Source: Actinomycetota bacterium (GTDB lineage Bacteria; Actinomycetota; CADDZG01; WHSQ01). Taken from it: a stretch of DNA of 27,373 nt. The notes beneath the pieces were generated by a model that ran no database searches, had not been told where the DNA came from, and saw nothing but the letters and a program-made list of their open reading frames with translations. The stretch covers positions 1 to 27,373 of the forward strand of contig JBKJYP010000113.1 in the NCBI GenBank assembly GCA_046715695.1, read 5' to 3'. Positions 16,866-27,373 of the stretch are shown one piece after another. The position numbers were made by a program, and so were the translations under genes. Position 1 is the stretch's first letter, and each line of letters begins with the position of its first letter.

Positions 16866-17644
16866 ACCTGTCTCGTATCGGGGTCGTGGTCCACGATGGG
16901 AAACCTGCTGCCGTTCGCCTCCGCGACGAGCTCGGGACCTGGCTCGGCCGGCGCGGGGCAGCCTTCGACCAGGATGACCCCGGATTGATCCTTTCGCTCG
17001 GTGGGGACGGCACGATGTTGCGAGCCGCGCAGCTTGCCCATCAGAAAGATGTCCCGCTCCTCGGGATCAACCTGGGCTCACTCGGCTATCTGACCGAGGT
17101 GGATGAAGGCGGCGCCCACGAAGCTCTGGAGCAGGTGCTCACAGGCGACATCCAGATCGAGGAAAGGATGATGCTCGAGTGCTCGATCCCCGGCTCCGGG
17201 GAACGTTTCGTGGGCTTGAACGAGGTCCTGGTCGAGCGGGCTTCCCAGCATCGGATCGTGCGGTTCGGGATCGGGATCGGCGGTGAGAGCTTCACGGACT
17301 TCAACGCCGACGGGGTGATCGTCGCGACACCGACAGGTTCTACGGCTTACGCGATGAGCGCGGGTGGGCCGATCGTCTCTCCGAGAGCAGAGTGCATCGT
17401 CGTAGTGCCGGTGAGCGCACACATCATCTTCTCGCGACCTTTCGTGCTGGCGGCCGATGAAGCGATCGAGATATCTGTCAAGGGCGACCAGCCGGCGTCT
17501 GTCTCGCTCGATGGAGCGATCGGATGTGATGTCGCTGCGGGGTCGGTCGTGAGGGTCGGCCGCCATCCGCGTCCCCTCAAGCTCGTGCGCACGGGTGGCC
17601 CCCGCTTCCTAGAGCGGTTACGGATCAAGTTGGGCCTGCCCTGA
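16862..17644 (+). CDS. nadK: NAD(+) kinase
   Basis: Motifs GGDGTML, GINLGSLGYL, LNE, ADGVIVATPTGSTAYAMSAGGPI. GTGA overlap with tlyA. Confidence 0.96.
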   Translation: MNLSRIGVVVHDGKPAAVRLRDELGTWLGRRGAAFDQDDPGLILSLGGDGTMLRAAQLAHQKDVPLLGINLGSLGYLTEVDEGGAHEALEQVLTGDIQIEERMMLECSIPGSGERFVGLNEVLVERASQHRIVRFGIGIGGESFTDFNADGVIVATPTGSTAYAMSAGGPIVSPRAECIVVVPVSAHIIFSRPFVLAADEAIEISVKGDQPASVSLDGAIGCDVAAGSVVRVGRHPRPLKLVRTGGPRFLERLRIKLGLP

Positions 17645-19299
17645 TGCTGACGGACCTGATAGTCGAAGGCCTTGGGGTCATCGATCGGGCCGAGGTCGCC
17701 CTCGATCCCGGGTGCGTTGCGCTGACCGGCGAAACGGGGGCCGGGAAGACGCTCATCGTCGCGGCGCTCGGCCTTTTACTGGGCGATCGTGCCGATCGAT
17801 CTTTGCTCCGAGAGGGCGTGGACCAAGCAACCGTGGAGGCCAGATTCGAAGTCGAGGCATCGCACCCGGCTGCAGTTGCCGCGGCCGAGGCCACCGGCGA
17901 GGGGGCGACCACCGAGGTCGTGCTCGCGCGAAGCATCCATGCAGACGGCCGCAGCCGGGCTCGCATCAACGGGAGGATGGCGAACGCATCCACCCTGAAA
18001 GAGGTCGGTGCCCTGCTCGTCGAGATCGCGGGGCAGAACCAGCATCAGAGGCTGGGCACTCGCGCCGTCCAACGGGAGATCCTGGATTCATTCGCGGGAC
18101 CGGAAGCGATCGAGCTCGTCCAGAAGCTTGGAGAGGTGGTTCCGGCAGCCGTGCGCGCCGCCCAGGACCTGGAGGGATTCCTGTCGTCGGCCGCACAGCG
18201 AGAGAGACAGCGAGATGCCCTCAGATACGAGATCGAGGAGATCGAGAAAGCCTCGGTGGGCGAGGGGGAGCTTGCCGACCTCGGGGCCGAGATCGCCCGC
18301 GCGGATAGCGCTTCGTTGATAGCCGACGCCGTGGGCACCGCTCTCGACGCGGTCGGTTCGGACGACGGGGCTGCAACGAGAGCATCTCTTGCGGCCGCGG
18401 CTCTCGAGACGGTTGCTTCGATACAGCCGGAGGTCTCGGATCTTGTGGATCGGCTCCGGGCAGCAGCCGGCGAGCTCGATGATGTCTCGCACGCTCTGGC
18501 CGGCCTCGCCGCTCCACCCCCGCAAGGATCGATCGACGAGATGCGAGCGCGCCTCGAGGTCCTTCGAAGGCTCGAGCGCAAGTACGGAGGTCTGTTCGAG
18601 TATCTCGCGGGGGCTCGAGAGAGACTCGCCGCGCTCGAGGACGACGATGAGAGTCTCGAGCGTCTTCGGGCGGAGGCCGACAGGCTCCGAACCGACGCCG
18701 AGAGGTTGGGCCAGAGTCTCGGTGTCTGCCGGAGAGAGGCGGCCCCTAAGTTGTCCGCAGCGGTAGACGAGGCGCTTACCAACCTAGCGATGGCCGGGGC
18801 GCGCTTCGAGGTCGCCCTCCAGCCGGGCGAACTCACGGCTCACGGAGCCGAATCCGTTGAGTTCCTGCTTTCGGCCAACATCGGCGAAGCCCCCAAACCG
18901 TTGTCCCGTGTCGCCTCGGGTGGCGAGTTGTCGCGGCTTTCGCTCGCGATAAACCTCCTCGCCTCCGCCGGCGGTGTGCCCACGATGGTCTTCGATGAGG
19001 TCGACGCTGGCGTCGGGGGGGCCGCGGCTCGATCGGTGGGTGATGCCCTCGCCAACCTCGCGCGCAAACGCTCCAAGCAGGTGATCGTGGTGACGCACCT
19101 TCCTCAGGTAGCAGCGTTCGCAGACCAGCACCTTCAGGTGACCAAGGAGCAAGAGGGCGACCGCACGGCTGCGCGACTAGCGCGCGTCGAAGGGGATGAG
19201 AGAGTCGGCGAGCTGTCTCGCATGCTCGCGGGCTTCCCGGACTCGGAAAGCGCAAGGGGCCACGCTCGGGAGCTACTGGATCTCGGGTCGCGCCCTTGA
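17644..19299 (+). CDS. recN: DNA repair protein RecN
   Basis: Walker A TGETGAGKT, long coiled coil, signature ASGGELSR, Walker B FDEVDAGVGG, and VTHLPQVAA. Confidence 0.97.
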   Translation: MLTDLIVEGLGVIDRAEVALDPGCVALTGETGAGKTLIVAALGLLLGDRADRSLLREGVDQATVEARFEVEASHPAAVAAAEATGEGATTEVVLARSIHADGRSRARINGRMANASTLKEVGALLVEIAGQNQHQRLGTRAVQREILDSFAGPEAIELVQKLGEVVPAAVRAAQDLEGFLSSAAQRERQRDALRYEIEEIEKASVGEGELADLGAEIARADSASLIADAVGTALDAVGSDDGAATRASLAAAALETVASIQPEVSDLVDRLRAAAGELDDVSHALAGLAAPPPQGSIDEMRARLEVLRRLERKYGGLFEYLAGARERLAALEDDDESLERLRAEADRLRTDAERLGQSLGVCRREAAPKLSAAVDEALTNLAMAGARFEVALQPGELTAHGAESVEFLLSANIGEAPKPLSRVASGGELSRLSLAINLLASAGGVPTMVFDEVDAGVGGAAARSVGDALANLARKRSKQVIVVTHLPQVAAFADQHLQVTKEQEGDRTAARLARVEGDERVGELSRMLAGFPDSESARGHARELLDLGSRP

Positions 19300-19303
19300 C
19301 ACC

Positions 19304-20494
19304 ATGAAGTTGAGACTCCGTCGCCGGCGATCCTCCACAGAAGCATCTGACCGCAGCGGTGTTGCTCGGGTCGGGCCTCGAACGAAGGATCTCATCGCTC
19401 GGATCGAGCCGGGTGAGATAGCCATCATCGATCATCAGGATCTCGATCGGATCGCCGCCGAAGGGTTGGTGCTGCGGAAGGTCAAGGCGGTAGTGAATGC
19501 GACCCACTCCAGCAGTGGTCGCTATCCGAACCTCGGCCCCCTCCTCGTGGTCTCGGCCGGTATCCCTCTGATCGATGCCGCGGGACCCAAAGTGATGGCG
19601 ATCCCCGACGGAGCGCGAGTGATGATCGAGGGAGGACGCGTCTTTCTCGTCGAGGGCGACGATAAGTCTGAGGTGGCGCACGGCCATCCGTTGTCGCTCG
19701 AGGACGCAGAGGCCACGCTCGATGCCTCCAAGAAGACGATCGTGACCGAGCTGGAGCGCTTCGCCGAGAACACGATCAACTACATCCGCGAGGAGAGAGA
19801 TGTATTGCTCGATGCGACGCGTCTCCCTGAGGTTCGCACAGATTTCCACGGCCGGCACGTACTAGTCGTCGTCCGTGGATACGACTACAAAGAGGATCTC
19901 TCTGCGCTGGGCCCCTACATCAGGGAGGTTCGGCCGATCCTCATCGGGGTCGACGGAGGAGCCGATGCGCTCATAGATGTTGGCCTCAAACCGAACCTGA
20001 TCATCGGGGACATGGACTCGGTCACCACGGAGGCTCTCGTCTGCGGAGCCGAGTTGGTCGTGCACGCGTACGCCGGCGGGCATGCACCCGGCATCGAGAG
20101 GATCGATGCGCTGGGCTTGGACTCCGTGCTTTTCGAAGCGACCGGGACCTCCGAGGACATAGCTCTGCTCCTTGCTTTCGAGCGGGGGGCGGAGTTGATC
20201 GTCGCGGTTGGGACGCACGCGAACCTCGTGGAGTTCCTGGACAAGGGCCGTAAGGGGATGGCTTCCACGTTCTTGGTGCGTCTGAGGGTAGGCCCTATCC
20301 TGGTCGACGCGAAGGGCGTGAGCCGGCTCTACGGCGCGCGGGTCAAGCGCAAGGATCTCGTGATGCTTGTGGGATCGGCTCTCCTCGCGATGGCGATCGT
20401 GATCTCCCTATCGGAACCCTTGAGGCTGGAGCTGGAGCTGGTATGGACCCAGATAAAGACCACATGGTTCTCACTCCAAGATTCGGTTTTCTGA
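19304..20494 (+). CDS. steA: SteA family cell-separation protein (Rv1697-like, thiamine pyrophosphokinase-like domain)
   Basis: Start moved to ATG 19304. Motifs GRYPNLGP, FAENT, GRHVLVVVRG, IGVDGGADAL, IIGDMDSV, GTSEDIALLLA, EFLDKGRKGMASTFLVRLRVG. C-terminal TM helix. Position after recN. Confidence 0.92.
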   Translation: MKLRLRRRRSSTEASDRSGVARVGPRTKDLIARIEPGEIAIIDHQDLDRIAAEGLVLRKVKAVVNATHSSSGRYPNLGPLLVVSAGIPLIDAAGPKVMAIPDGARVMIEGGRVFLVEGDDKSEVAHGHPLSLEDAEATLDASKKTIVTELERFAENTINYIREERDVLLDATRLPEVRTDFHGRHVLVVVRGYDYKEDLSALGPYIREVRPILIGVDGGADALIDVGLKPNLIIGDMDSVTTEALVCGAELVVHAYAGGHAPGIERIDALGLDSVLFEATGTSEDIALLLAFERGAELIVAVGTHANLVEFLDKGRKGMASTFLVRLRVGPILVDAKGVSRLYGARVKRKDLVMLVGSALLAMAIVISLSEPLRLELELVWTQIKTTWFSLQDSVF

Positions 20495-20510
20495 TGACCG
20501 GCAAGCCTCG

Positions 20511-21461
20511 ATGATCGATTTCCGCTATCACCTCATCTCCATAATCTCGGTCCTCCTCGCGCTGTCGCTAGGCATACTCGTCGGCTCTGGGTTCCTGGGC
20601 GATCCCTTGCTCGAAGACATCAAGAAAAGGACCGACGCTGTGAATGCGGCCAACGACCGGCTGCTGGAGCTCGCTTCGAAACTGCGCGCCGAGATCCGAC
20701 AGCGCGACGAGTCGTTCCAAGAAGCGGCTCCGCTGCTCCTCGAAAGCCGCCTTACCGACCGACAGGTCGTCATGTTCGTGCTTGAAGGAACCCCGGGAGG
20801 GATGATCGGTGAGATCACCGATGCCATCGAGGAGGCGGGGGGCGCCGTAGCGACCACTATCCGGGTCTCGGACAGATTCCGGCTCGAGACCCCGGCCGAA
20901 CAGGACCAGCTCGCGCTCATACTCCGCGCTCTGCCCGATGCGGAAGATGCGCTCCGAGCTCAGGCGGGCACCCTTCTCGGATCGAGAGCAGCGAGCGTCG
21001 CCGCGTTGCCGGCAAGGGGAAACACGAACGAGAGCCTCCATCCTCTCGAGAACCGGTTGATGGCCTTGCTTGACGAGCTCGCCGATGCCGACTACATCTC
21101 GGTTGAGTCCGGGGAGGAGGTGGTTCCGCGCGGCGCTGTCTTCGCGATCGTGGGGGGGAGCAAGGACGACCCTCCCTTCGAACCCCACTCCTTCGTGGTG
21201 TCGTTGGGGGACGGGATCGCGGAGAACCAGGGAGTGGCGATCGCGGCCGAGCCCTCGGACAGCATCTGGGAGTTGGTCGAAGCGTTGCGGGATGAGCCTC
21301 GGACTGTGGGTGTCGTTGCCACTGTAGACAACGCCGAGTCGATCTTCGGCCAGATCGCCATCGTGTTGGGCTTGCAACGGGCCGAACTGGGGATCATCGA
21401 CCACTACGGCACGGGCTCCGGTGCAACCCGCATCCTTCCGGAGCCGGAATCTGGGACGTGA
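20511..21461 (+). CDS. steB: SteB/MctB (DUF3186, Rv1698-like) membrane protein
   Basis: Diagnostic N-terminus MIDFRYHLISIISVLLALSLGILVGSG, a coiled coil, and C-terminal VATVDN...GQIAIVLGL...HYGTGSGA. Directly after steA. Confidence 0.92.
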   Translation: MIDFRYHLISIISVLLALSLGILVGSGFLGDPLLEDIKKRTDAVNAANDRLLELASKLRAEIRQRDESFQEAAPLLLESRLTDRQVVMFVLEGTPGGMIGEITDAIEEAGGAVATTIRVSDRFRLETPAEQDQLALILRALPDAEDALRAQAGTLLGSRAASVAALPARGNTNESLHPLENRLMALLDELADADYISVESGEEVVPRGAVFAIVGGSKDDPPFEPHSFVVSLGDGIAENQGVAIAAEPSDSIWELVEALRDEPRTVGVVATVDNAESIFGQIAIVLGLQRAELGIIDHYGTGSGATRILPEPESGT

Positions 21462-23100
21462 TCCTGTAGACAACGGCGCGGCTCCGTCGCTCTCGCGGGG
21501 TGCGGCCTCGATCACGCTTGCCACAGCTCTGTCGCGACTGACCGGGTTCGTTCGCGTCATCGTCGTGGCCGCAGCGATGGGCACGACGTTCATGGCCAAC
21601 ACGTATCAGACTGCGAACACGGCTCCGAACGTCCTGTTCGAGCTGCTTGCAGCCGGCGTGTTGACCTCGGTCTTCGTCCCCACATTCGTCGAGTTCATCG
21701 TCGCGCGGCGACGAGATGAGGGTTGGGTGGTCGCGGACATCCTCAGCACCGCTGCGATCCTGGCCCTCTGCGTTCTCTCCGTGTTGCTGGCTCTGGCCGC
21801 GCCGTTGGTGATGCGCCTCCTGACGATCGGTGTGCAGGATCGGGCGCTGCGCGCGGATGAGATAGCGACCGGGGCCTCGCTACTCAGATTGTTCGCTCCT
21901 CAGGTCGTTCTCTACGGCGTCGGGATGATCATGACGGCCGCATTGCATGCCCACCGTCGTTTCGGGCTCGCCGCAGCGGCGCCGATCTTCAACAACATCA
22001 TCGTCATCGGCGTCTACCTGGCTTACGCGCAGATGCGCGGTGACTCCCCTCCGTCGGTCCACTCGGTGGGCACCGACGAGATCTGGCTACTCGGGCTCGG
22101 CACGACCGCGGGTGTTCTGGCGATGACGGCCGTACTCGTTGTGCCCCTGAGGAGGTTGGGCTGGCGTTTCAGACCCCGATGGGATCCCCATCACCCCGTT
22201 CTGAGGAAGAGCGCTCGACTCGGTGTGTGGGCGTTGGGCTACGCGGGCGGTTATCAGGCCGGATTGATCGTGGTCCTCGTGCTCGCCAACCGGATCGAGG
22301 GGGGAGTGGCCGCGTATCAGTGGGCCTACACATTCTTCTATCTACCTCACGCGTTGTTCTCGGTCCCCATCTTCTCGGTGCTCTTCACTGCCATGGCCGA
22401 GCACGTAGCCAGGAGTGAGCTCGAAGCCGTTTCCGATCGGATCCGTTCCGGCCTACAGATGCTGCTCTTCCTCCTCATCCCCCTGTCGATCGGGCTGGTA
22501 GCTGTCGCACAACCCCTTGCGAGGCTCACGCTTCTGTTGGGTGTCATGACGCCGTCGGGGGCCGCGCTGGTGGGCCGTGTCTTGGCAGGATTCGCGATCG
22601 GACTGCCGACGTATTCGATATTTCTCGTCTACACGCGCGCGTTCTATGCGATCGGAGAGACGAAGGTGCCGGCGTTGCTGAATGCCCTTTCGGTTCTGGT
22701 GGCTTCGGTATCGGGAGCGGCGCTTTTCTACCTGGCGCCGTCACGCTGGTCCGTTCCTGGACTCGCCGTCGGTCATTCCTTGGGCTTCGGGGTGGGCGCC
22801 TGGCTGCTTGCCCGGGCTTTCGAACGACGAACCCCGGGCGTCAAGGGTGTCGAGGCGATGTCCGTCGTCCGCTCGGCGGGGGCCGGCCTCCTGACGCTGC
22901 TCGTCCTCGTGCCTGCAGCCGCTCAGGCTCTCGATGCCGGCAGCCGCTTGACAACGGGGCTATGGCTGGCCTTGGGGGCGGCCGGAGGGACCCTGATCTA
23001 CCTGGGGGTGATGCTCGGCCTGGGCTCCGAGGAACCGCAGAGGATCGCCAAGCTGGTGACTCAACGCCGAAACCCGGGTCCCACGGCCAAAGATGGGTAG
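21421..23100 (+). CDS. murJ: MurJ/MviN-family lipid II flippase (MOP superfamily), no C-terminal kinase-homology extension
   Basis: Motifs LSRLTGFVR, YQTANTAPNVLFELLAAGVLTSVFVP, FAPQVVLYG, AAPIFNN, LPHALF and RAFYAIGETKVP. The only canonical start that keeps TM1 is GTG 21421, overlapping steB by 41 nt, so the start is uncertain. Confidence 0.9.
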   Translation: MQPASFRSRNLGRDPVDNGAAPSLSRGAASITLATALSRLTGFVRVIVVAAAMGTTFMANTYQTANTAPNVLFELLAAGVLTSVFVPTFVEFIVARRRDEGWVVADILSTAAILALCVLSVLLALAAPLVMRLLTIGVQDRALRADEIATGASLLRLFAPQVVLYGVGMIMTAALHAHRRFGLAAAAPIFNNIIVIGVYLAYAQMRGDSPPSVHSVGTDEIWLLGLGTTAGVLAMTAVLVVPLRRLGWRFRPRWDPHHPVLRKSARLGVWALGYAGGYQAGLIVVLVLANRIEGGVAAYQWAYTFFYLPHALFSVPIFSVLFTAMAEHVARSELEAVSDRIRSGLQMLLFLLIPLSIGLVAVAQPLARLTLLLGVMTPSGAALVGRVLAGFAIGLPTYSIFLVYTRAFYAIGETKVPALLNALSVLVASVSGAALFYLAPSRWSVPGLAVGHSLGFGVGAWLLARAFERRTPGVKGVEAMSVVRSAGAGLLTLLVLVPAAAQALDAGSRLTTGLWLALGAAGGTLIYLGVMLGLGSEEPQRIAKLVTQRRNPGPTAKDG

Positions 23101-23143
23101 GGTAGGCGACTTCCGCACCCGATCCAGAAGGAGGAACACGCCC

Positions 23144-23428
23144 TTGAACAAGAAAGAATTGGTCGACTCCGTCGCAGCGGCCACGGATGAGAGCAAGCGC
23201 ACGGTGGCCAACGTCCTAGACGAGGCGATCGATCTGATCCAGCGGTCCGTCAAGAAAGGTGAGCGCGTAACGCTGCCGGGTTTCGGCACATTCGAGCGCC
23301 GCGCCCGGGCTGCCCGCACAGCACGCAACCCTCGCACCGGTGAGGAGATCAAGGTCAAGGCTTCGAAGGTCCCCGCTTTCAAGGCAGGCTCCGCCTTCAA
23401 GGAGTTCGTCAATGGGGTGAAGAAGTAG
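23144..23428 (+). CDS. hup: Histone-like DNA-binding protein HU (94 aa, no PAKK tail)
   Basis: TTG start at 23144 after AGAAGGAGG. MNKKELV...GERVTLPGFGTFERRARAARTARNPRTGEEIKVKASKVPAFKAG. Confidence 0.97.
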   Translation: MNKKELVDSVAAATDESKRTVANVLDEAIDLIQRSVKKGERVTLPGFGTFERRARAARTARNPRTGEEIKVKASKVPAFKAGSAFKEFVNGVKK

Positions 23429-23441
23429 GAACCCTGCACCT

Positions 23442-23804
23442 ATGAAAAGAGCTGCGGTTGGCGGGGCCCACAGGGGCCCCGTCGCCGTTTCTAGGCAACG
23501 TCGAACCCTGCGGCTAGTTCAGGGGATCCTCGTCCTCCTTGCCGCGATCCTGTTCATCTACGCCGGCTACTCGTGGGGTCGCTCATCCGGCTTCGAAGCG
23601 GGGAGACAGGCCGCCGACATCGACGCACCCCGGCGGCCGGGGGCAGGTCAGACGATCGTCCTGACGGTGATAGGTGGATCGATACTGCTGGCGGCATTCC
23701 TGCTCCAGTCGGGTGGCGTGCTGCGCTCTCCTGTTCCGGCTCGTCTCGACGAGCTTGCCGGCCGGGCTGAGGATGCTGCGATCGCGCGTGCAGAGGAGTC
23801 CTAA
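23442..23804 (+). CDS. Small hypothetical two-TM membrane protein
   Basis: Two hydrophobic segments (LVQGILVLLAAILFIYAGYSW and TIVLTVIGGSILLAAFLL). Fills the gap between hup and the convergent cofC, with a 4-nt stop-codon overlap. Confidence 0.65.
   Translation: MKRAAVGGAHRGPVAVSRQRRTLRLVQGILVLLAAILFIYAGYSWGRSSGFEAGRQAADIDAPRRPGAGQTIVLTVIGGSILLAAFLLQSGGVLRSPVPARLDELAGRAEDAAIARAEES
23460..23483 (+). terminator. GC-rich hairpin about 30 nt after the hup stop, possible terminator or stabiliser
   Basis: GGCGGGGCCC-ACAG-GGGCCCCGTC stem-loop followed by GCCGTTTCT. The U tract is weak and the hairpin lies inside the next ORF. Confidence 0.35.
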
Positions 23805-24424
23805 GGGTTCAGGAATCGTCCGGTGTGTGTCTCAGCAGCGCGCGGATGAGCGAGGAATCTATCTACGTCTTCCGGTGTGTCGATGTCTAGGGCGAGCCGA
23901 GGCAACGCCAGGATCGAACACCGGAACCCCTCACGTTCGGCCGATGCGATGTGTGCGTTGAGGCTCGCGGGACCGAATCGAGGTTCGATCAGGTTGGGTG
24001 GACGCAGATAGAGCCCGTTGGTTCCGCCATCGTTCCCGGCCGGCACCACAACGACGTCTGAAGTCGCTCCCGTGTCGAGCAGATCGTTCAGGTCGTAGGA
24101 AGAGGCAAGCGGCACGTCGCTCGGGACAACCGTCAACGAGTCTGCCCCCCGTTCGCTCGCGGCGCGAGCCGCGAGAGCAAGTGCCTCATTGAGCCCGGTG
24201 CCGGTTTCGTCGAGAACCTCGAAACCGGCCCCCACGGCTGAGCTCTTGACCTCTTCGTCCGAGGTGACGATCAACCATCCCAGCGCGGGCGTCCCGGCGG
24301 CAAGGTCCAGCGCATCTCGCAGGAGGGCGCGAGCGATGCCTAGCCGTGTGTCTTCATCGAACCTCCCGGCGAGCCTGCTCTTGGCCGCGAGGAGCGGTTT
24401 GACCGGGATGACGCCGATGTCCAT
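23801..24424 (-). CDS. cofC: 2-phospho-L-lactate/phosphoenolpyruvate guanylyltransferase (F420 biosynthesis, CofC/FbiD)
   Basis: Motifs IPVK...AKSRLA, GLNEAL, VPSDVPL, GGTNGL, FGPASLNAH and LDIDTPED. Confidence 0.93.
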   Translation of the reverse strand: MDIGVIPVKPLLAAKSRLAGRFDEDTRLGIARALLRDALDLAAGTPALGWLIVTSDEEVKSSAVGAGFEVLDETGTGLNEALALAARAASERGADSLTVVPSDVPLASSYDLNDLLDTGATSDVVVVPAGNDGGTNGLYLRPPNLIEPRFGPASLNAHIASAEREGFRCSILALPRLALDIDTPEDVDRFLAHPRAAETHTGRFLNP

Positions 24425-24430
24425 CCCCGC

Positions 24431-24436
24431 AATCTA
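24431..24436 (-). promoter_or_regulatory. Putative -10 hexamer TAGATT for leaderless cofC transcript
   Basis: Minus-strand TANNNT exactly 6 nt upstream of ATG 24424. Confidence 0.55.
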
Positions 24437-24454
24437 CGGGCGCCCGGCGTCCTC

Positions 24455-25558
24455 TCAGAGATCGGAGGCCGGCACGACCCTCGCTACCCCTGCTTCAGCC
24501 GGGTCGGTGACCCAGAGGACGCCTTCGGATTCCGAGATCTGTCTCGCATCTCCGTCGACCTGCAGGACGATCCCGGAGAGCATCCCGGTGTCGACGGATA
24601 CCCCGGTCACGACAGGCGTCCCTCCGTCATTGGAGAGGACCCACATCACGCCCTCGCCGAGAGTCATGTCGAGATAGCGGCCTGCGATCGGGCTCTCGCC
24701 GAGAGGCTCGAGGGTCTCGATCGAATACTTGGACAACGTCGATGTGGTTCTGTTCGCGATCCATAGGGCACCGGCGCCGGCGGTGAGATCGCTGCCGGGA
24801 GCTGCGGTCGTCGGGATCGAGCGGACGGGCTCGGCTGTGATCGGATCGAGATCTATCAGCTCGCCCCCCAGTCCCAGGGCCCAGAGGTGCCCATCGCCGA
24901 TAGCGATGTCGGTCGCTCCAAGCTCCTCGGTCGCGTCGATCGAACCCGTCGCGGGATCGATGCTGACGAGCTCCCGCTCATCGACTAGCACCCACGTCGT
25001 GCCGTCCCCGGCCGCCATCTCGAGCGAGACCGGTTCGTCCGCGAGGACCACCGGGTTACCGATCGCTTCTCCGGTCTGCTCGCTGAACCGAAAGACGGAG
25101 GACAGTTCTGGGTTCGAAACCCAAACGATGCCGTTGCGGATGTCTATGTCCTCGGGACGTCCCTCGATGGGGATCGAGTCGATGATCGTCGTCGTGGCGG
25201 CGTCGATGCGGTGGATGACCTGCCGATCGGTGTCGGTGACCCAGACCACGCCGGCGGAGACGACGAGGTCGAAAGGATGTCTGCCGACCTCGACGAACGT
25301 TGTGACCTGGTCTGCGAAGCCGTTGTCCGGTTCTGTGGGACCAGCATCGGGGCGGGTCACCGCAACAACCGTCATGAGGATCGCGATCAGTGCGGCGGCA
25401 CCGACGGCCGTGCCGGCCCAGACCAACGTCGTTCTGCGCCGTGACCGGGACACGACCCGAGAACGCGCTTCCACCCGGCGAGGCGCTCTCTCTTCCCGCG
25501 CCGCCTCCTTGACCGTGGAGAGAGACTCGGCGATGCGCCGCTCGAGGTCGTCCCTCAT
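24455..25558 (-). CDS. Putative anti-sigma factor: short cytoplasmic N-terminus, one TM helix, extracytoplasmic seven-bladed beta-propeller (YVTN/Vgb-like)
   Basis: ATGA overlap with the ECF gene. TM helix LVWAGTAVGAAALIAILMTVVAV. Seven roughly 40-aa repeats, each with a G-x-(V/L/T/M)-W-(V/A/I) core (GVVWV, GIVWV, GTTWV, GHLWA, GALWI, GVMWV, GVLWV). Confidence 0.75.
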   Translation of the reverse strand: MRDDLERRIAESLSTVKEAAREERAPRRVEARSRVVSRSRRRTTLVWAGTAVGAAALIAILMTVVAVTRPDAGPTEPDNGFADQVTTFVEVGRHPFDLVVSAGVVWVTDTDRQVIHRIDAATTTIIDSIPIEGRPEDIDIRNGIVWVSNPELSSVFRFSEQTGEAIGNPVVLADEPVSLEMAAGDGTTWVLVDERELVSIDPATGSIDATEELGATDIAIGDGHLWALGLGGELIDLDPITAEPVRSIPTTAAPGSDLTAGAGALWIANRTTSTLSKYSIETLEPLGESPIAGRYLDMTLGEGVMWVLSNDGGTPVVTGVSVDTGMLSGIVLQVDGDARQISESEGVLWVTDPAEAGVARVVPASDL

Positions 25559-26139
25559 GCGCTCGCCCCCTCTCTGTCACCTTCGAGTGCAACCGCGAGC
25601 TTCGCGCGGGCGCGCGTCAGTTGTGATCTCACAGTGCTGGCGGAACACCCCATGATCTCCGCGATCTCTCCTTCGGGCAGGTCCTCGACGTAACGCAGAA
25701 CGATGCACGCGCGCTGTCGCATGGGGAGCCCCTTGACCGCACCCCACAGCTCTCGCGCCGACTCGTGAATATCCGGCGTCCATTCCTTCACGCGGCGCCT
25801 GTCCTCGTGATGCGAGAGCTCGTTGACGCGGCGCTCCGTTATCTTGCGGCGGATCTTGGACCGGCAGAGGTTCACGACCGAGCGTTTGAGATAGACATCG
25901 GCTCGCGCTGTGTCCCGGATCCGCCCCCAGCCCGTGTAGGTCTTGATGAGGGCCTCCATGACGATCTCCTCCGCGAGGTGGGCATCACGGATGATCAGGT
26001 AGGCGAGGTCACACAACCGGTCGTAATGGCGGTCGAACAGTTCCGCCACCAGCACTTCCCGGGCATCCGTCGTGTCGGCCACTGCCGGCAATCCTCTCAG
26101 CGCCTGGGTATCCGGGAACAGAAGGGTGTCCATACCCAT
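25555..26139 (-). CDS. ECF RNA polymerase sigma-70 factor, SigE (Streptomyces-type) family
   Basis: Region 2 LAYLIIRDAHLAEEIVMEALIKTYTGWGRI..YLKRSVVNLCRS. Region 4 LPMRQRACIVLRYVEDLPEGEIAEIMGCSASTVRSQLTRARAKL. The true start may be ATG 26133. Confidence 0.93.
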   Translation of the reverse strand: MGMDTLLFPDTQALRGLPAVADTTDAREVLVAELFDRHYDRLCDLAYLIIRDAHLAEEIVMEALIKTYTGWGRIRDTARADVYLKRSVVNLCRSKIRRKITERRVNELSHHEDRRRVKEWTPDIHESARELWGAVKGLPMRQRACIVLRYVEDLPEGEIAEIMGCSASTVRSQLTRARAKLAVALEGDREGASA

Positions 26140-26141
26140 GC

Positions 26142-26167
26142 AGACGCCCTAGGGCGTGCGGACGCTG
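26142..26167 (-). promoter_or_regulatory. Candidate autoregulatory ECF promoter CAGC-N17-CGTCT, with a perfect 14-bp palindrome (ACGCCCTAGGGCGT, 26144-26157) overlapping the -10
   Basis: The minus strand reads GCAGC-gtccgcacgccctaggg-CGTCT-gcATGggtATG. This is one mismatch from the CAAC...CGTC pattern of SigE-type promoters as recalled. Confidence 0.4.
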
Positions 26168-26195
26168 CACGGGTTGGGGGGATACTTTCCCCCCT

Positions 26196-27356
26196 ATGCC
26201 GGAGCCCGATCGGAAACACTGGAAACACCTATACGCCGAGATCGTGTCGACGGAGATCTGCTGTGGCTGCTCGGCCTGCATCGTCGCCTGCCCCCACAAG
26301 GTCCTCGAGCTGCAGGATTTCGACCCGATCCAGACGGACGGCAACTCCCCGTTCGACAACTGCGTCCATGGCGAGGAAGGCTGCTCCCTCTGTGCGATGG
26401 CCTGTCTCCGCCTGGACCCGTCGGTGGGAGTGATCGAGCCCGCCGTCTTCGGGCGGCGCCGTCAACCGGATGAGCCCTGGGGGGCGTACCGCTACAAGAC
26501 GCTGGCCCGGGCGACCTATGAGCCGATCTTGGCCAAGGGACAAGACGGGGGAGCCGTCACGGCCCTGATCTCGTGGGGGCTGGATACCGGCGAGCTGGAT
26601 GGCGCTGCGGTCTCGGCCCCCTCGCCCGACGTCGCATGGCTCGACGAGCCCAGACTCGTGCGCTCGTCCGAGGAGCTTCTGGCGGCGGCGGGGTCGCGTT
26701 ACACCTACTGCGCGACGCCACTGGCGCTCAAGAAGGCCGCGGAGGCGAAGCTCAAGTCGATCGCTCTCGTGGGTGTCTCGTGCGAGTCGACCGCGGTCCG
26801 GCAGCTCGCCGCCCAAGGCATCAAGCGATGGGTGCGTCCGGTCAAGCTCGTGATCGGACTGATGTGCTGCGAGACCTTCGACTACGACGCGTTCATGGTC
26901 GGCAAGGTCGAGCAAGAGATGGGCATCAACCTTCAGGACGTCACCAAGGTGAACGTCAAAGGCAAGGTCATCGTCACGATGAAAGACGGGCAGGACATCA
27001 ACATCCCGCTGAAGGAGGCGCGTCCCTTCGCCAACGAGTGGTGCCATCACTGCCCCGACTTCTCGGCCGAGCACGCCGATCTGTCTTGCGGCGGTCTCGG
27101 TATGGAAGGCTGGACGATGATCCTCGTGCGCTCCGAGAAAGGTGAGGACTACCTCAAGCGCGCGGTCGAGGCCGGCGTCCTCGAGCTGCGCGATGCCGAG
27201 GAAGAGCAGAACGCTCTGTCGGTGATGGATCGCCTCGCCCGCAAGCAACGAGAACGGGTAGGGCCCTTCGACCCCCATGCCGCCGCCGCCTACCCCACCC
27301 AGCAACTACTAGACGCGGCCCGTGCCGAAGCCGAGTCTGAAACAGCGCCGACTTGA
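26196..27356 (+). CDS. F420-interacting FrhB/FdhB/FpoF-family flavoprotein with an N-terminal 2x[4Fe-4S] ferredoxin domain
   Basis: Ferredoxin motifs CCGCSACIVACP and C-x6-CSLCAMAC. FrhB-domain motifs GQDGGAVTAL, AAGSRYT, VGVSCE, IGLMCCETF and CHHCPDF.AE.ADLSCG. TACTTT lies 7 nt upstream of the ATG. Confidence 0.92.
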   Translation: MPEPDRKHWKHLYAEIVSTEICCGCSACIVACPHKVLELQDFDPIQTDGNSPFDNCVHGEEGCSLCAMACLRLDPSVGVIEPAVFGRRRQPDEPWGAYRYKTLARATYEPILAKGQDGGAVTALISWGLDTGELDGAAVSAPSPDVAWLDEPRLVRSSEELLAAAGSRYTYCATPLALKKAAEAKLKSIALVGVSCESTAVRQLAAQGIKRWVRPVKLVIGLMCCETFDYDAFMVGKVEQEMGINLQDVTKVNVKGKVIVTMKDGQDINIPLKEARPFANEWCHHCPDFSAEHADLSCGGLGMEGWTMILVRSEKGEDYLKRAVEAGVLELRDAEEEQNALSVMDRLARKQRERVGPFDPHAAAAYPTQQLLDAARAEAESETAPT

Positions 27357-27373
27357 TCAGAACGCGCCAATAT

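What the first reader, a model, noticed from the sequence alone, without database searches (positions are those of the whole stretch)
23801..27356. F420 module: cofC plus a stand-alone FpoF/FrhB-type ferredoxin-flavoprotein bracketing an ECF sigma/anti-sigma pair
Seen: an FrhB-family protein with two N-terminal [4Fe-4S] motifs heads its own transcript, about 1.8 kb from cofC, with only the ECF pair in between. No hydrogenase or formate dehydrogenase subunits precede it. Known: this domain layout is that of archaeal FpoF/FqoF, the F420H2-oxidising input module of complex I-like enzymes, which can also exchange electrons between F420 and ferredoxin. Characterised actinobacterial F420 is reduced mainly by Fgd or Fno and used by FDOR/LLM enzymes. 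Inference: an archaeal-style F420H2:ferredoxin or F420H2:quinone electron route in an actinobacterium. Linkage to cofC argues that the ligand really is F420. The genes after 27356 are outside the window and could change this reading.
Basis: partly seen in the sequence, partly recalled or inferred. Interest (0 to 1): 0.75.

Follow-up and report, generated by a model that had tools for sequence, protein, structure and literature searches.

The report
Bacterial F420-to-iron-sulfur electron adaptor
Deep-branching actinobacteria carry one conserved gene, built like the archaeal module that moves electrons between cofactor F420 and iron-sulfur proteins, which probably links their F420 pool to ferredoxin and possibly to a respiratory complex whose electron donor is unknown; the regulator pair beside it here is an unrelated recent insertion.

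Summary
Observation confirmed. 26196-27356 encodes a single-copy 2x[4Fe-4S]+FrhB flavoprotein with all 12 cluster cysteines; it folds like archaeal F420 reductases (8RIU_B, TM 0.81) but scores far below the FpoF/FrhB cut-offs. It stands alone: the next gene (contig C222) is convergent, and no hydrogenase was found. The ECF pair is a recent insertion; elsewhere cofC lies within 300 bp of the gene (44/50 loci). F420 is well supported: the genome has fbiC, cofD, cofE, fbiE and fno, and 67 of 72 phylum orthologs occur with cofG. Orthologs sit beside a 7Fe ferredoxin in 17/34 loci from other classes, never co-occur with Fgd, and 68/72 co-occur with the NuoD of a second complex I lacking NuoEFG. Best reading: a soluble, reversible F420:ferredoxin oxidoreductase (0.5). 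Main rival, compatible with it: a docked F420H2 input module for the 11-subunit complex I (0.3). No activity or binding was shown. Nothing characterised in bacteria was found in the papers searched, but this scan reported the same family on other DNA (e1-5281845). New variant of a known kind.

The parts
26196..27356 (+). Stand-alone FpoF-like F420 oxidoreductase, 386 aa: N-terminal 2x[4Fe-4S] ferredoxin domain plus FrhB-type FAD/[4Fe-4S] domain
   Evidence: Pfam; NCBIfam below cut-offs; PDB; cysteines; AF2 pLDDT 93.7
26259..26405 (+). Ferredoxin-like domain with C22/C25/C28/C32 and C56/C63/C66/C70 (two predicted [4Fe-4S] clusters)
26502..27203 (+). FrhB_N + FrhB_C: QDGG flavin motif (aa 116-119); third cluster ligands C196, C224, C283, C286
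26183..26188 (+). Putative -10 box TACTTT, 7 nt before the ATG (leaderless-type promoter, inferred)
   Evidence: same hexamer in L052; TANNNT in 15/54 orthologs vs 0.8% background
27346..27373 (.). Left arm and loop of a 24-bp perfect hairpin over the stop codon, completed on contig C222; probable terminator between convergent genes and cause of the contig break (an assembly artefact is not excluded)
23801..24424 (-). cofC/fbiD (phosphoenolpyruvate or 2-phospholactate guanylyltransferase); ancestrally divergent neighbour of the FpoF-like gene
   Evidence: TIGR03552 over cut-off; synteny
24431..24436 (-). Conserved -10 box TAGATT, 6 nt before the cofC ATG: cofC has its own leaderless-type promoter
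   Evidence: TANNNT in 43/51 cofC genes vs 0.8% background
24455..25558 (-). Single-pass membrane protein with a beta-propeller (putative anti-sigma); lineage-specific insertion, not part of the F420 system
   Evidence: only here and in L052
25555..26139 (-). SigE-family ECF sigma factor, 4-nt overlap with the propeller gene; lineage-specific insertion
23442..23804 (+). 120-aa membrane protein convergent with cofC (4-nt overlap); conserved neighbour in the family, no known link to F420

Best explanation
The 386-aa protein is a monocistronic, soluble F420:ferredoxin (F420:Fe-S protein) oxidoreductase. Shown by sequence and model: an FrhB fold with the flavin motif and three Fe-S sites. Inferred from the family mechanism: F420 exchanges a hydride with FAD, and FAD passes single electrons through the FrhB cluster and the two N-terminal clusters to a ferredoxin. 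Inferred physiology: reduced ferredoxin from 2-oxoacid:ferredoxin oxidoreductase regenerates F420H2 for the genome's LLM reductases, and through Fno for NADPH, in lineages without Fgd. Where Fno supplies F420H2 it can run in reverse and hand electrons via a ferredoxin to the NuoEFG-less complex I. The ECF pair is a passenger inserted into the ancestral cofC<- ->gene pair.
For: Fold and closest solved relatives are F420 reductases that take electrons from Fe-S relays (8RIU_B, 8RJA_E; PMC11493965). Soluble FpoF of M. mazei has Fd:F420 activity (PMC9012536). F420 linkage recurs in several lineages: cofC; fbiB and fbiC flanking the gene in G136; LLM genes; cofE/cofD/cofG/cofH beside distant homologs. 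67/72 ortholog genomes have cofG, and 0/69 genomes lacking both cofG and NuoD2 have the gene. A 7Fe ferredoxin lies downstream within 6.3 kb in 17/34 loci from six families outside the class. One homolog ends an OFOR operon. This genome has OFOR, FdxA, Fno and 8 LLM hits but no Fgd or hydrogenase. In family f11 (8/8 with the gene, cofG and OFOR) neither Fno nor Fgd was found. G222 keeps the gene without a NuoD2 hit.
Against: No activity was measured. The ferredoxin gene is convergent, not co-transcribed, and is not adjacent in this class. Family f28 (G160 is a single contig) and G118/G233 keep the gene without OFOR or an FdxA-type ferredoxin, though they have single-cluster ferredoxins. OFOR is near-universal in the phylum (181/201), so its presence says little. 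Co-occurrence counts are confounded by kinship. Other LLM-type F420 dehydrogenases in f11 were not excluded.
Confidence: 0.5

Rival explanations
1. It is the missing input subunit of the 11-subunit complex I (nuoABCDHIJKLMN). It docks on NuoI2 and gives a bacterial F420H2:menaquinone oxidoreductase (Fpo/Fqo-like), fed by NADPH through Fno. This is compatible with the best explanation, since M. mazei FpoF does both.
For: This genome and all four families of the class carry a second nuo operon without E, F, G. 68/72 ortholog genomes have NuoD2; 16 of 20 checked outside the class lie in EFG-less operons. 12/17 genomes of family f3 have no NuoF hit, and those examined carry only the headless operon, while f28 has no OFOR or FdxA. 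This protein is the one candidate donor present in both groups. PMC7771536 proposed that the truncated nuo cluster of Actinomarinales uses F420.
Against: The gene was never seen in or beside a nuo operon. NuoD2 occurs without the gene in 31/99 genomes, including 16 that lack cofG, so the headless complex has other donors. The gene persists in G222 without NuoD2. In f11 no known source of F420H2 other than this protein was found. In f28 the headless complex could borrow NuoEFG from the adjacent 14-subunit operon.
Confidence: 0.3
2. [quoted passage not shown]
For: The closest solved structures are such subunits. P0126 ends an OFOR operon. The genome has three non-NuoG molybdopterin genes.
Against: No partner is conserved next to the gene in about 100 loci. 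OFOR is missing in f28. The molybdopterin genes have no beta-subunit neighbours. No hydrogenase was found.
Confidence: 0.1
3. It is a ferredoxin-dependent reductase of a non-F420 substrate, as the FrhB-family enzymes HCAR and BciB are, or a polysaccharide-locus FrhB-like protein.
For: HCAR shares the fold (5DQR). FrhB_C also matches in Synechococcus and Bacteroides controls.
Against: HCAR is the weakest match (E 8.6e-6, 23% identity). Linkage to F420 genes and co-occurrence with cofG are strong. No polysaccharide or tetrapyrrole genes are nearby.
Confidence: 0.06
4. It is a biosynthetic enzyme that reduces dehydro-F420-0 in genomes with a short CofE.
For: It is repeatedly embedded among F420 biosynthesis genes. 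This genome's CofE lacks the FbiB C-terminal domain.
Against: A stand-alone FbiE-type nitroreductase follows cofE on C19. G136 has full-length FbiB directly beside the gene.
Confidence: 0.03

Closest known systems
FpoF (Methanosarcina mazei) / FqoF (Archaeoglobus fulgidus)
   Same: 2x[4Fe-4S]+FrhB layout over the full length (NF040616 E 3e-39); an EFG-less complex I in the same genome; soluble FpoF has Fd:F420 activity (PMC9012536).
   Different: 135 bits vs cut-off 475. Host is a bacterium that often also has a 14-subunit complex I. It is linked to cofC or ferredoxin rather than to methanogenesis genes. Docking was not shown.
ACDS zeta subunit (8RIU_B) and FwdI (8RJA_E) of Ca. Ethanoperedens thermophilum
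   Same: Best structural matches (TM 0.81 and 0.74; 27-30% identity); F420 reductases fed by an Fe-S relay (PMC11493965).
   Different: Those are operon-encoded, tightly bound subunits of CO2-forming enzymes; this gene is monocistronic with no such partner.
FrhB / FdhB / Fsr N-terminal domain
   Same: FAD-binding F420 module with four cluster cysteines.
   Different: No frhA/frhG, fdhA partner or fused sulfite reductase; TIGR03289 183 bits vs 331.5; FrhB lacks the N-terminal ferredoxin domain.
Bacterial F420 reductants Fgd, Fsd and Fno
   Same: Proposed role of keeping F420 reduced.
   Different: Those transfer hydride directly. The flavin/Fe-S type of F420 enzyme is listed only for archaea in the passages read of PMC8498797.
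11-subunit complex I of actinobacteria
   Same: Present in this genome and in most ortholog carriers; proposed to use F420 in Actinomarinales (PMC7771536).
   Different: No input subunit was named in the passages read there, and PMC3144371 found FpoF-containing complexes only in Euryarchaeota and no promising bacterial partner.

Membership tests
FrhB/FdhB/FpoF superfamily | FrhB_FdhB_N and _C domains above Pfam cut-offs | tested here: met
   68.8 vs 22 and 128.2 vs 23.3 bits
FrhB/FdhB/FpoF superfamily | Four cluster cysteines and the flavin-binding QDGG motif | tested here: met
   C196, C224, C283, C286 and Q116-G119
FrhB/FdhB/FpoF superfamily | FrhB fold | tested here: met
   AF2 pLDDT 93.7; Foldseek 8riu_B E 2.7e-30, TM 0.81
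FpoF/FqoF | N-terminal 2x[4Fe-4S] domain fused to FrhB | tested here: met
FpoF/FqoF | Score above curated FpoF models (NF040616, PRK09326) | tested here: not met
   134.8 vs 475 and 133.8 vs 444
FpoF/FqoF | Complex I-like operon lacking NuoEFG in the genome | tested here: met
   nuoA, B, C, D, H, I, L, M, N of a second complex on C200, C115, C130; J and K not recovered here but complete in G001
FpoF/FqoF | Physical association with the complex and F420H2:quinone activity | not testable with these tools
   needs biochemistry
FpoF/FqoF | Phylogenetic nesting among characterised FpoF/FqoF | tested here: inconclusive
   Tree groups actinobacterial orthologs with a Chloroflexota sequence (SH 0.81-0.94), apart from Bathyarchaeia and Caldarchaeum proteins; no named FpoF was available and deep nodes are weak
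Frh hydrogenase beta subunit | frhA/frhG in operon or genome; TIGR03289 cut-off | tested here: not met
   PF00374 hits only NuoD, below cut-off (genome 90.5% complete); 182.5 vs 331.5
FdhB of F420-dependent formate dehydrogenase | Adjacent fdhA; C-terminal ferredoxin domain | tested here: not met
   No molybdopterin gene adjacent; ferredoxin domain is N-terminal; weak FdhB scores
F420-producing organism | cofG/cofH (fbiC), cofC, cofD, cofE and a dehydro-F420 reductase | tested here: met
   the FbiE-type gene is below the TIGR03553 cut-off (177 vs 250) but follows cofE directly
ECF sigma/anti-sigma pair | ECF sigma coupled to a single-pass membrane protein | tested here: met
   TIGR02937 over cut-off; 4-nt overlap; hydrophobic helix at aa ~44-67
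ECF sigma/anti-sigma pair | Anti-sigma activity, or control of cofC or the FpoF-like gene | not testable with these tools
   No anti-sigma domain matched; synteny argues against a functional link

The most novel reading that the evidence does not exclude
Deep-branching Actinomycetota (this class, Acidimicrobiia and several others) run a bacterial Fpo-like proton pump. This protein is the F420H2-oxidising head of their 11-subunit complex I, so NADPH (via Fno) or F420H2 is respired to menaquinone. In family f3 it would be the head of the only complex I.
Probability: 0.3. Interest if true: 0.8.

Novelty: new variant of a known kind. Interest (0 to 1): 0.58.

Why it matters
Flavin/Fe-S F420 enzymes are described as archaeal, and bacterial F420 is thought to be reduced by Fgd, Fsd, Adf or Fno. 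A conserved single-copy gene in 55/61 genomes of this class, and in many other uncultured actinobacterial families, would connect F420 to one-electron metabolism in abundant soil and aquatic bacteria. It also names a concrete candidate for an open question, the electron donor of the actinobacterial 11-subunit complex I (PMC3144371, PMC7771536), and one small soluble protein makes that testable.

Tried and rejected
Complex prediction of the G050 ortholog with NuoI2 gave no answer (score 0.00); it is not used as evidence either way. RNA search: no RNA holder listed. Dehydro-F420 reductase idea: rejected because FbiE and full-length FbiB are present. ECF pair as regulator of the F420 genes: rejected on synteny and on cofC's own -10 box. 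Hydrogenase, formate dehydrogenase or polysaccharide operon downstream: rejected. 'Fgd replacement' as the sole role: weakened because 58/72 carriers have Fno. The IQ-TREE run did not finish, so FastTree was used, without named FpoF references. Actinomarinales could not be identified among the hits, so their status is untested. The sigma-70 consensus scan was uninformative. The 2016 F420 review is not held. G214/L122 was left out of the ortholog set because it groups with archaeal sequences.
Full report
Observation. The window is all of contig C113 of a 2.72-Mb, 63% GC, 90.5% complete genome. Its relatives are titled Actinomycetota MAGs; from memory the class is probably UBA4738, which I did not verify. 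The 386-aa protein has Fer4_7, FrhB_N and FrhB_C. It scores below the curated cut-offs for FrhB (183 vs 331.5) and FpoF (135 vs 475). Twelve cysteines for three clusters and the QDGG motif are invariant or nearly so. The model is confident (pLDDT 93.7) and matches best the F420-reducing ACDS zeta subunit and FwdI of Ca. Ethanoperedens, then FrhB and Fsr; HCAR is much weaker.

It stands alone. It is the only FrhB_C match in the genome. Contig C222, reversed, overlaps the window end by 7 nt across a 24-bp perfect hairpin and begins with a convergent ABM gene, then a metallophosphoesterase, plsC and gpsA. A relative with a 95% identical protein shows this order on one contig, and other relatives agree. 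No [NiFe] hydrogenase was found. The molybdopterin genes have no F420-type beta subunit beside them. A TACTTT box 7 nt before the ATG suggests a leaderless promoter (inferred).

The ECF pair is an insertion. The gene is present in 55/61 genomes of the class at 53-85% identity. cofC is divergent at 49-184 bp in every fetched class locus with upstream DNA except L052. In a second, partly overlapping set, cofC is within 300 bp in 44 of 50 loci; the other six have it at 0.6-2.0 kb and none has this sigma or propeller gene. The same-genus genome G001 has the direct arrangement. cofC keeps a TANNNT box before its start in 43/51 genomes against 0.8% background. So the cofC linkage is real and old, and the sigma pair is incidental.

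The ligand is very probably F420. The genome has fbiC, cofD, cofE and a stand-alone FbiE-type gene on C19, Fno and 8 LLM hits, but no Fgd. In 201 phylum genomes I counted 72 orthologs by hand (best E < 1e-50, G214 excluded). They occur in 63/78 genomes with both cofG and NuoD2, 4/33 with cofG only, 5/21 with NuoD2 only and 0/69 with neither. The five carriers without a cofG hit all have Fno. None of the seven Fgd genomes has the gene. These are related genomes, so the counts are descriptive, not a statistical test. Other lineages link the gene to other F420 genes: fbiB and fbiC (G136), LLMs, and cofE/cofD/cofG/cofH for distant homologs. The family is large (6503 clusters at E<=1e-60) and reaches Chloroflexota. 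The tree groups the actinobacterial orthologs with moderate support and does not test descent from FpoF.

Partner and direction. Outside the class a 7Fe ferredoxin lies downstream and convergent in 17/34 loci from six families, and one homolog closes an OFOR operon. The genome has OFOR and FdxA. In f11 the gene, cofG and OFOR are in 8/8 genomes while Fno and Fgd were not found, which points to the F420-reducing direction. G222 keeps the gene without NuoD2. On the other side, the genome has both a 14-subunit and an EFG-less complex I, and the latter is conserved in all four families of the class. In f3, 12/17 genomes have no NuoF hit. f28, G118 and G233 keep the gene, Fno and the headless operon without OFOR or FdxA, though they have NuoF and single-cluster ferredoxins. 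That favours F420H2 oxidation towards the membrane there. The headless complex also occurs without the gene (31/99), and the gene was never beside a nuo operon. A reversible soluble adaptor between the two-electron F420 pool and Fe-S carriers fits both patterns, as for M. mazei FpoF (PMC9012536). I give it 0.5 and direct docking on complex I 0.3; the two can both be true. Every mechanistic step beyond fold, cofactor motifs and gene context is inferred.

Known work. In the passages read, PMC8498797 lists Fpo, Fqo and Fsr for archaea only, and Fno, Fgd and Fsd as bacterial F420 reductants. PMC3144371 found FpoF-containing complex I only in Euryarchaeota and no promising partner for the bacterial 11-subunit enzyme. 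PMC7771536 suggested that the truncated nuo cluster of Actinomarinales uses F420; no input subunit is named in the passages read. I found no paper on this family in the library searched, which lacks most subscription journals. Databases call it 'F420 hydrogenase subunit beta', which is misleading. The scan met the family before (e1-5281845, e1-1536706); those notes are not independent evidence.

Unpublished genomes: G005, G007, G012, G020, G036 and G040 enter the class tallies, and G012, G020, G143 and G174 the phylum tallies. No locus-level claim rests on them.

Verdict: a real, ancient and widespread stand-alone FrhB-family protein tied to F420. It works like FpoF but is not a member by the curated models, and the ECF pair is not part of it. 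New variant of a known kind; interest 0.58.

Noticed in passing
L138:3943-9760; also L139, L140, L141, L142: A separate FrhB-like paralog clade (30-35% identity, long branch) sits directly after a ferredoxin-type nitrite/sulfite reductase. In L138 the operon is cysH-sir-frhB-like-sat-cysC, next to cofC and cofE. It looks like a split, F420H2-fed assimilatory sulfite reductase (Fsr-like) in bacteria (families f14, f9, f55).
   Followed up: partly
G000 C302/C6/C200/C115/C130; L063-L082: Two tandem nuo operons (14-subunit, then 11-subunit) across the class; many family f3 genomes retain only the 11-subunit one and have no NuoF hit.
   Followed up: yes
L077:9945-10748, L079:9903-10859; G000 C302:2781-3755: NuoI2 often carries a long Ala/Pro-rich tail ending in a short helical motif; by eye, the same motif starts a separate ORF upstream of the first nuo operon in this genome. 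These tails are short in the genomes that have only the headless complex.
   Followed up: no
G000 C19:8025-12647 (L058-L060): fbiC divergent from cofD-cofE-fbiE: CofE and the nitroreductase are separate genes, the unfused state described for Thermomicrobium, rather than fused FbiB.
   Followed up: yes
L081 (G009): cofC lies next to plsC with the FpoF-like gene missing in place: a real loss at the locus in one family member.
   Followed up: partly
window 27346-27373 and contig C222 end: 24-bp perfect inverted repeat at the contig break; absent in the close relative L052, where the two stop codons overlap.
   Followed up: partly
L216, L221, L224, L225: nuoD2 stands alone, away from other nuo genes, in families f17, f35 and f23.
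   Followed up: no
window 17644-23428: recN-steA-mctB-murJ-HU housekeeping block; in many relatives a Tad pilus cluster lies before HU instead (L053, L054).
   Followed up: no
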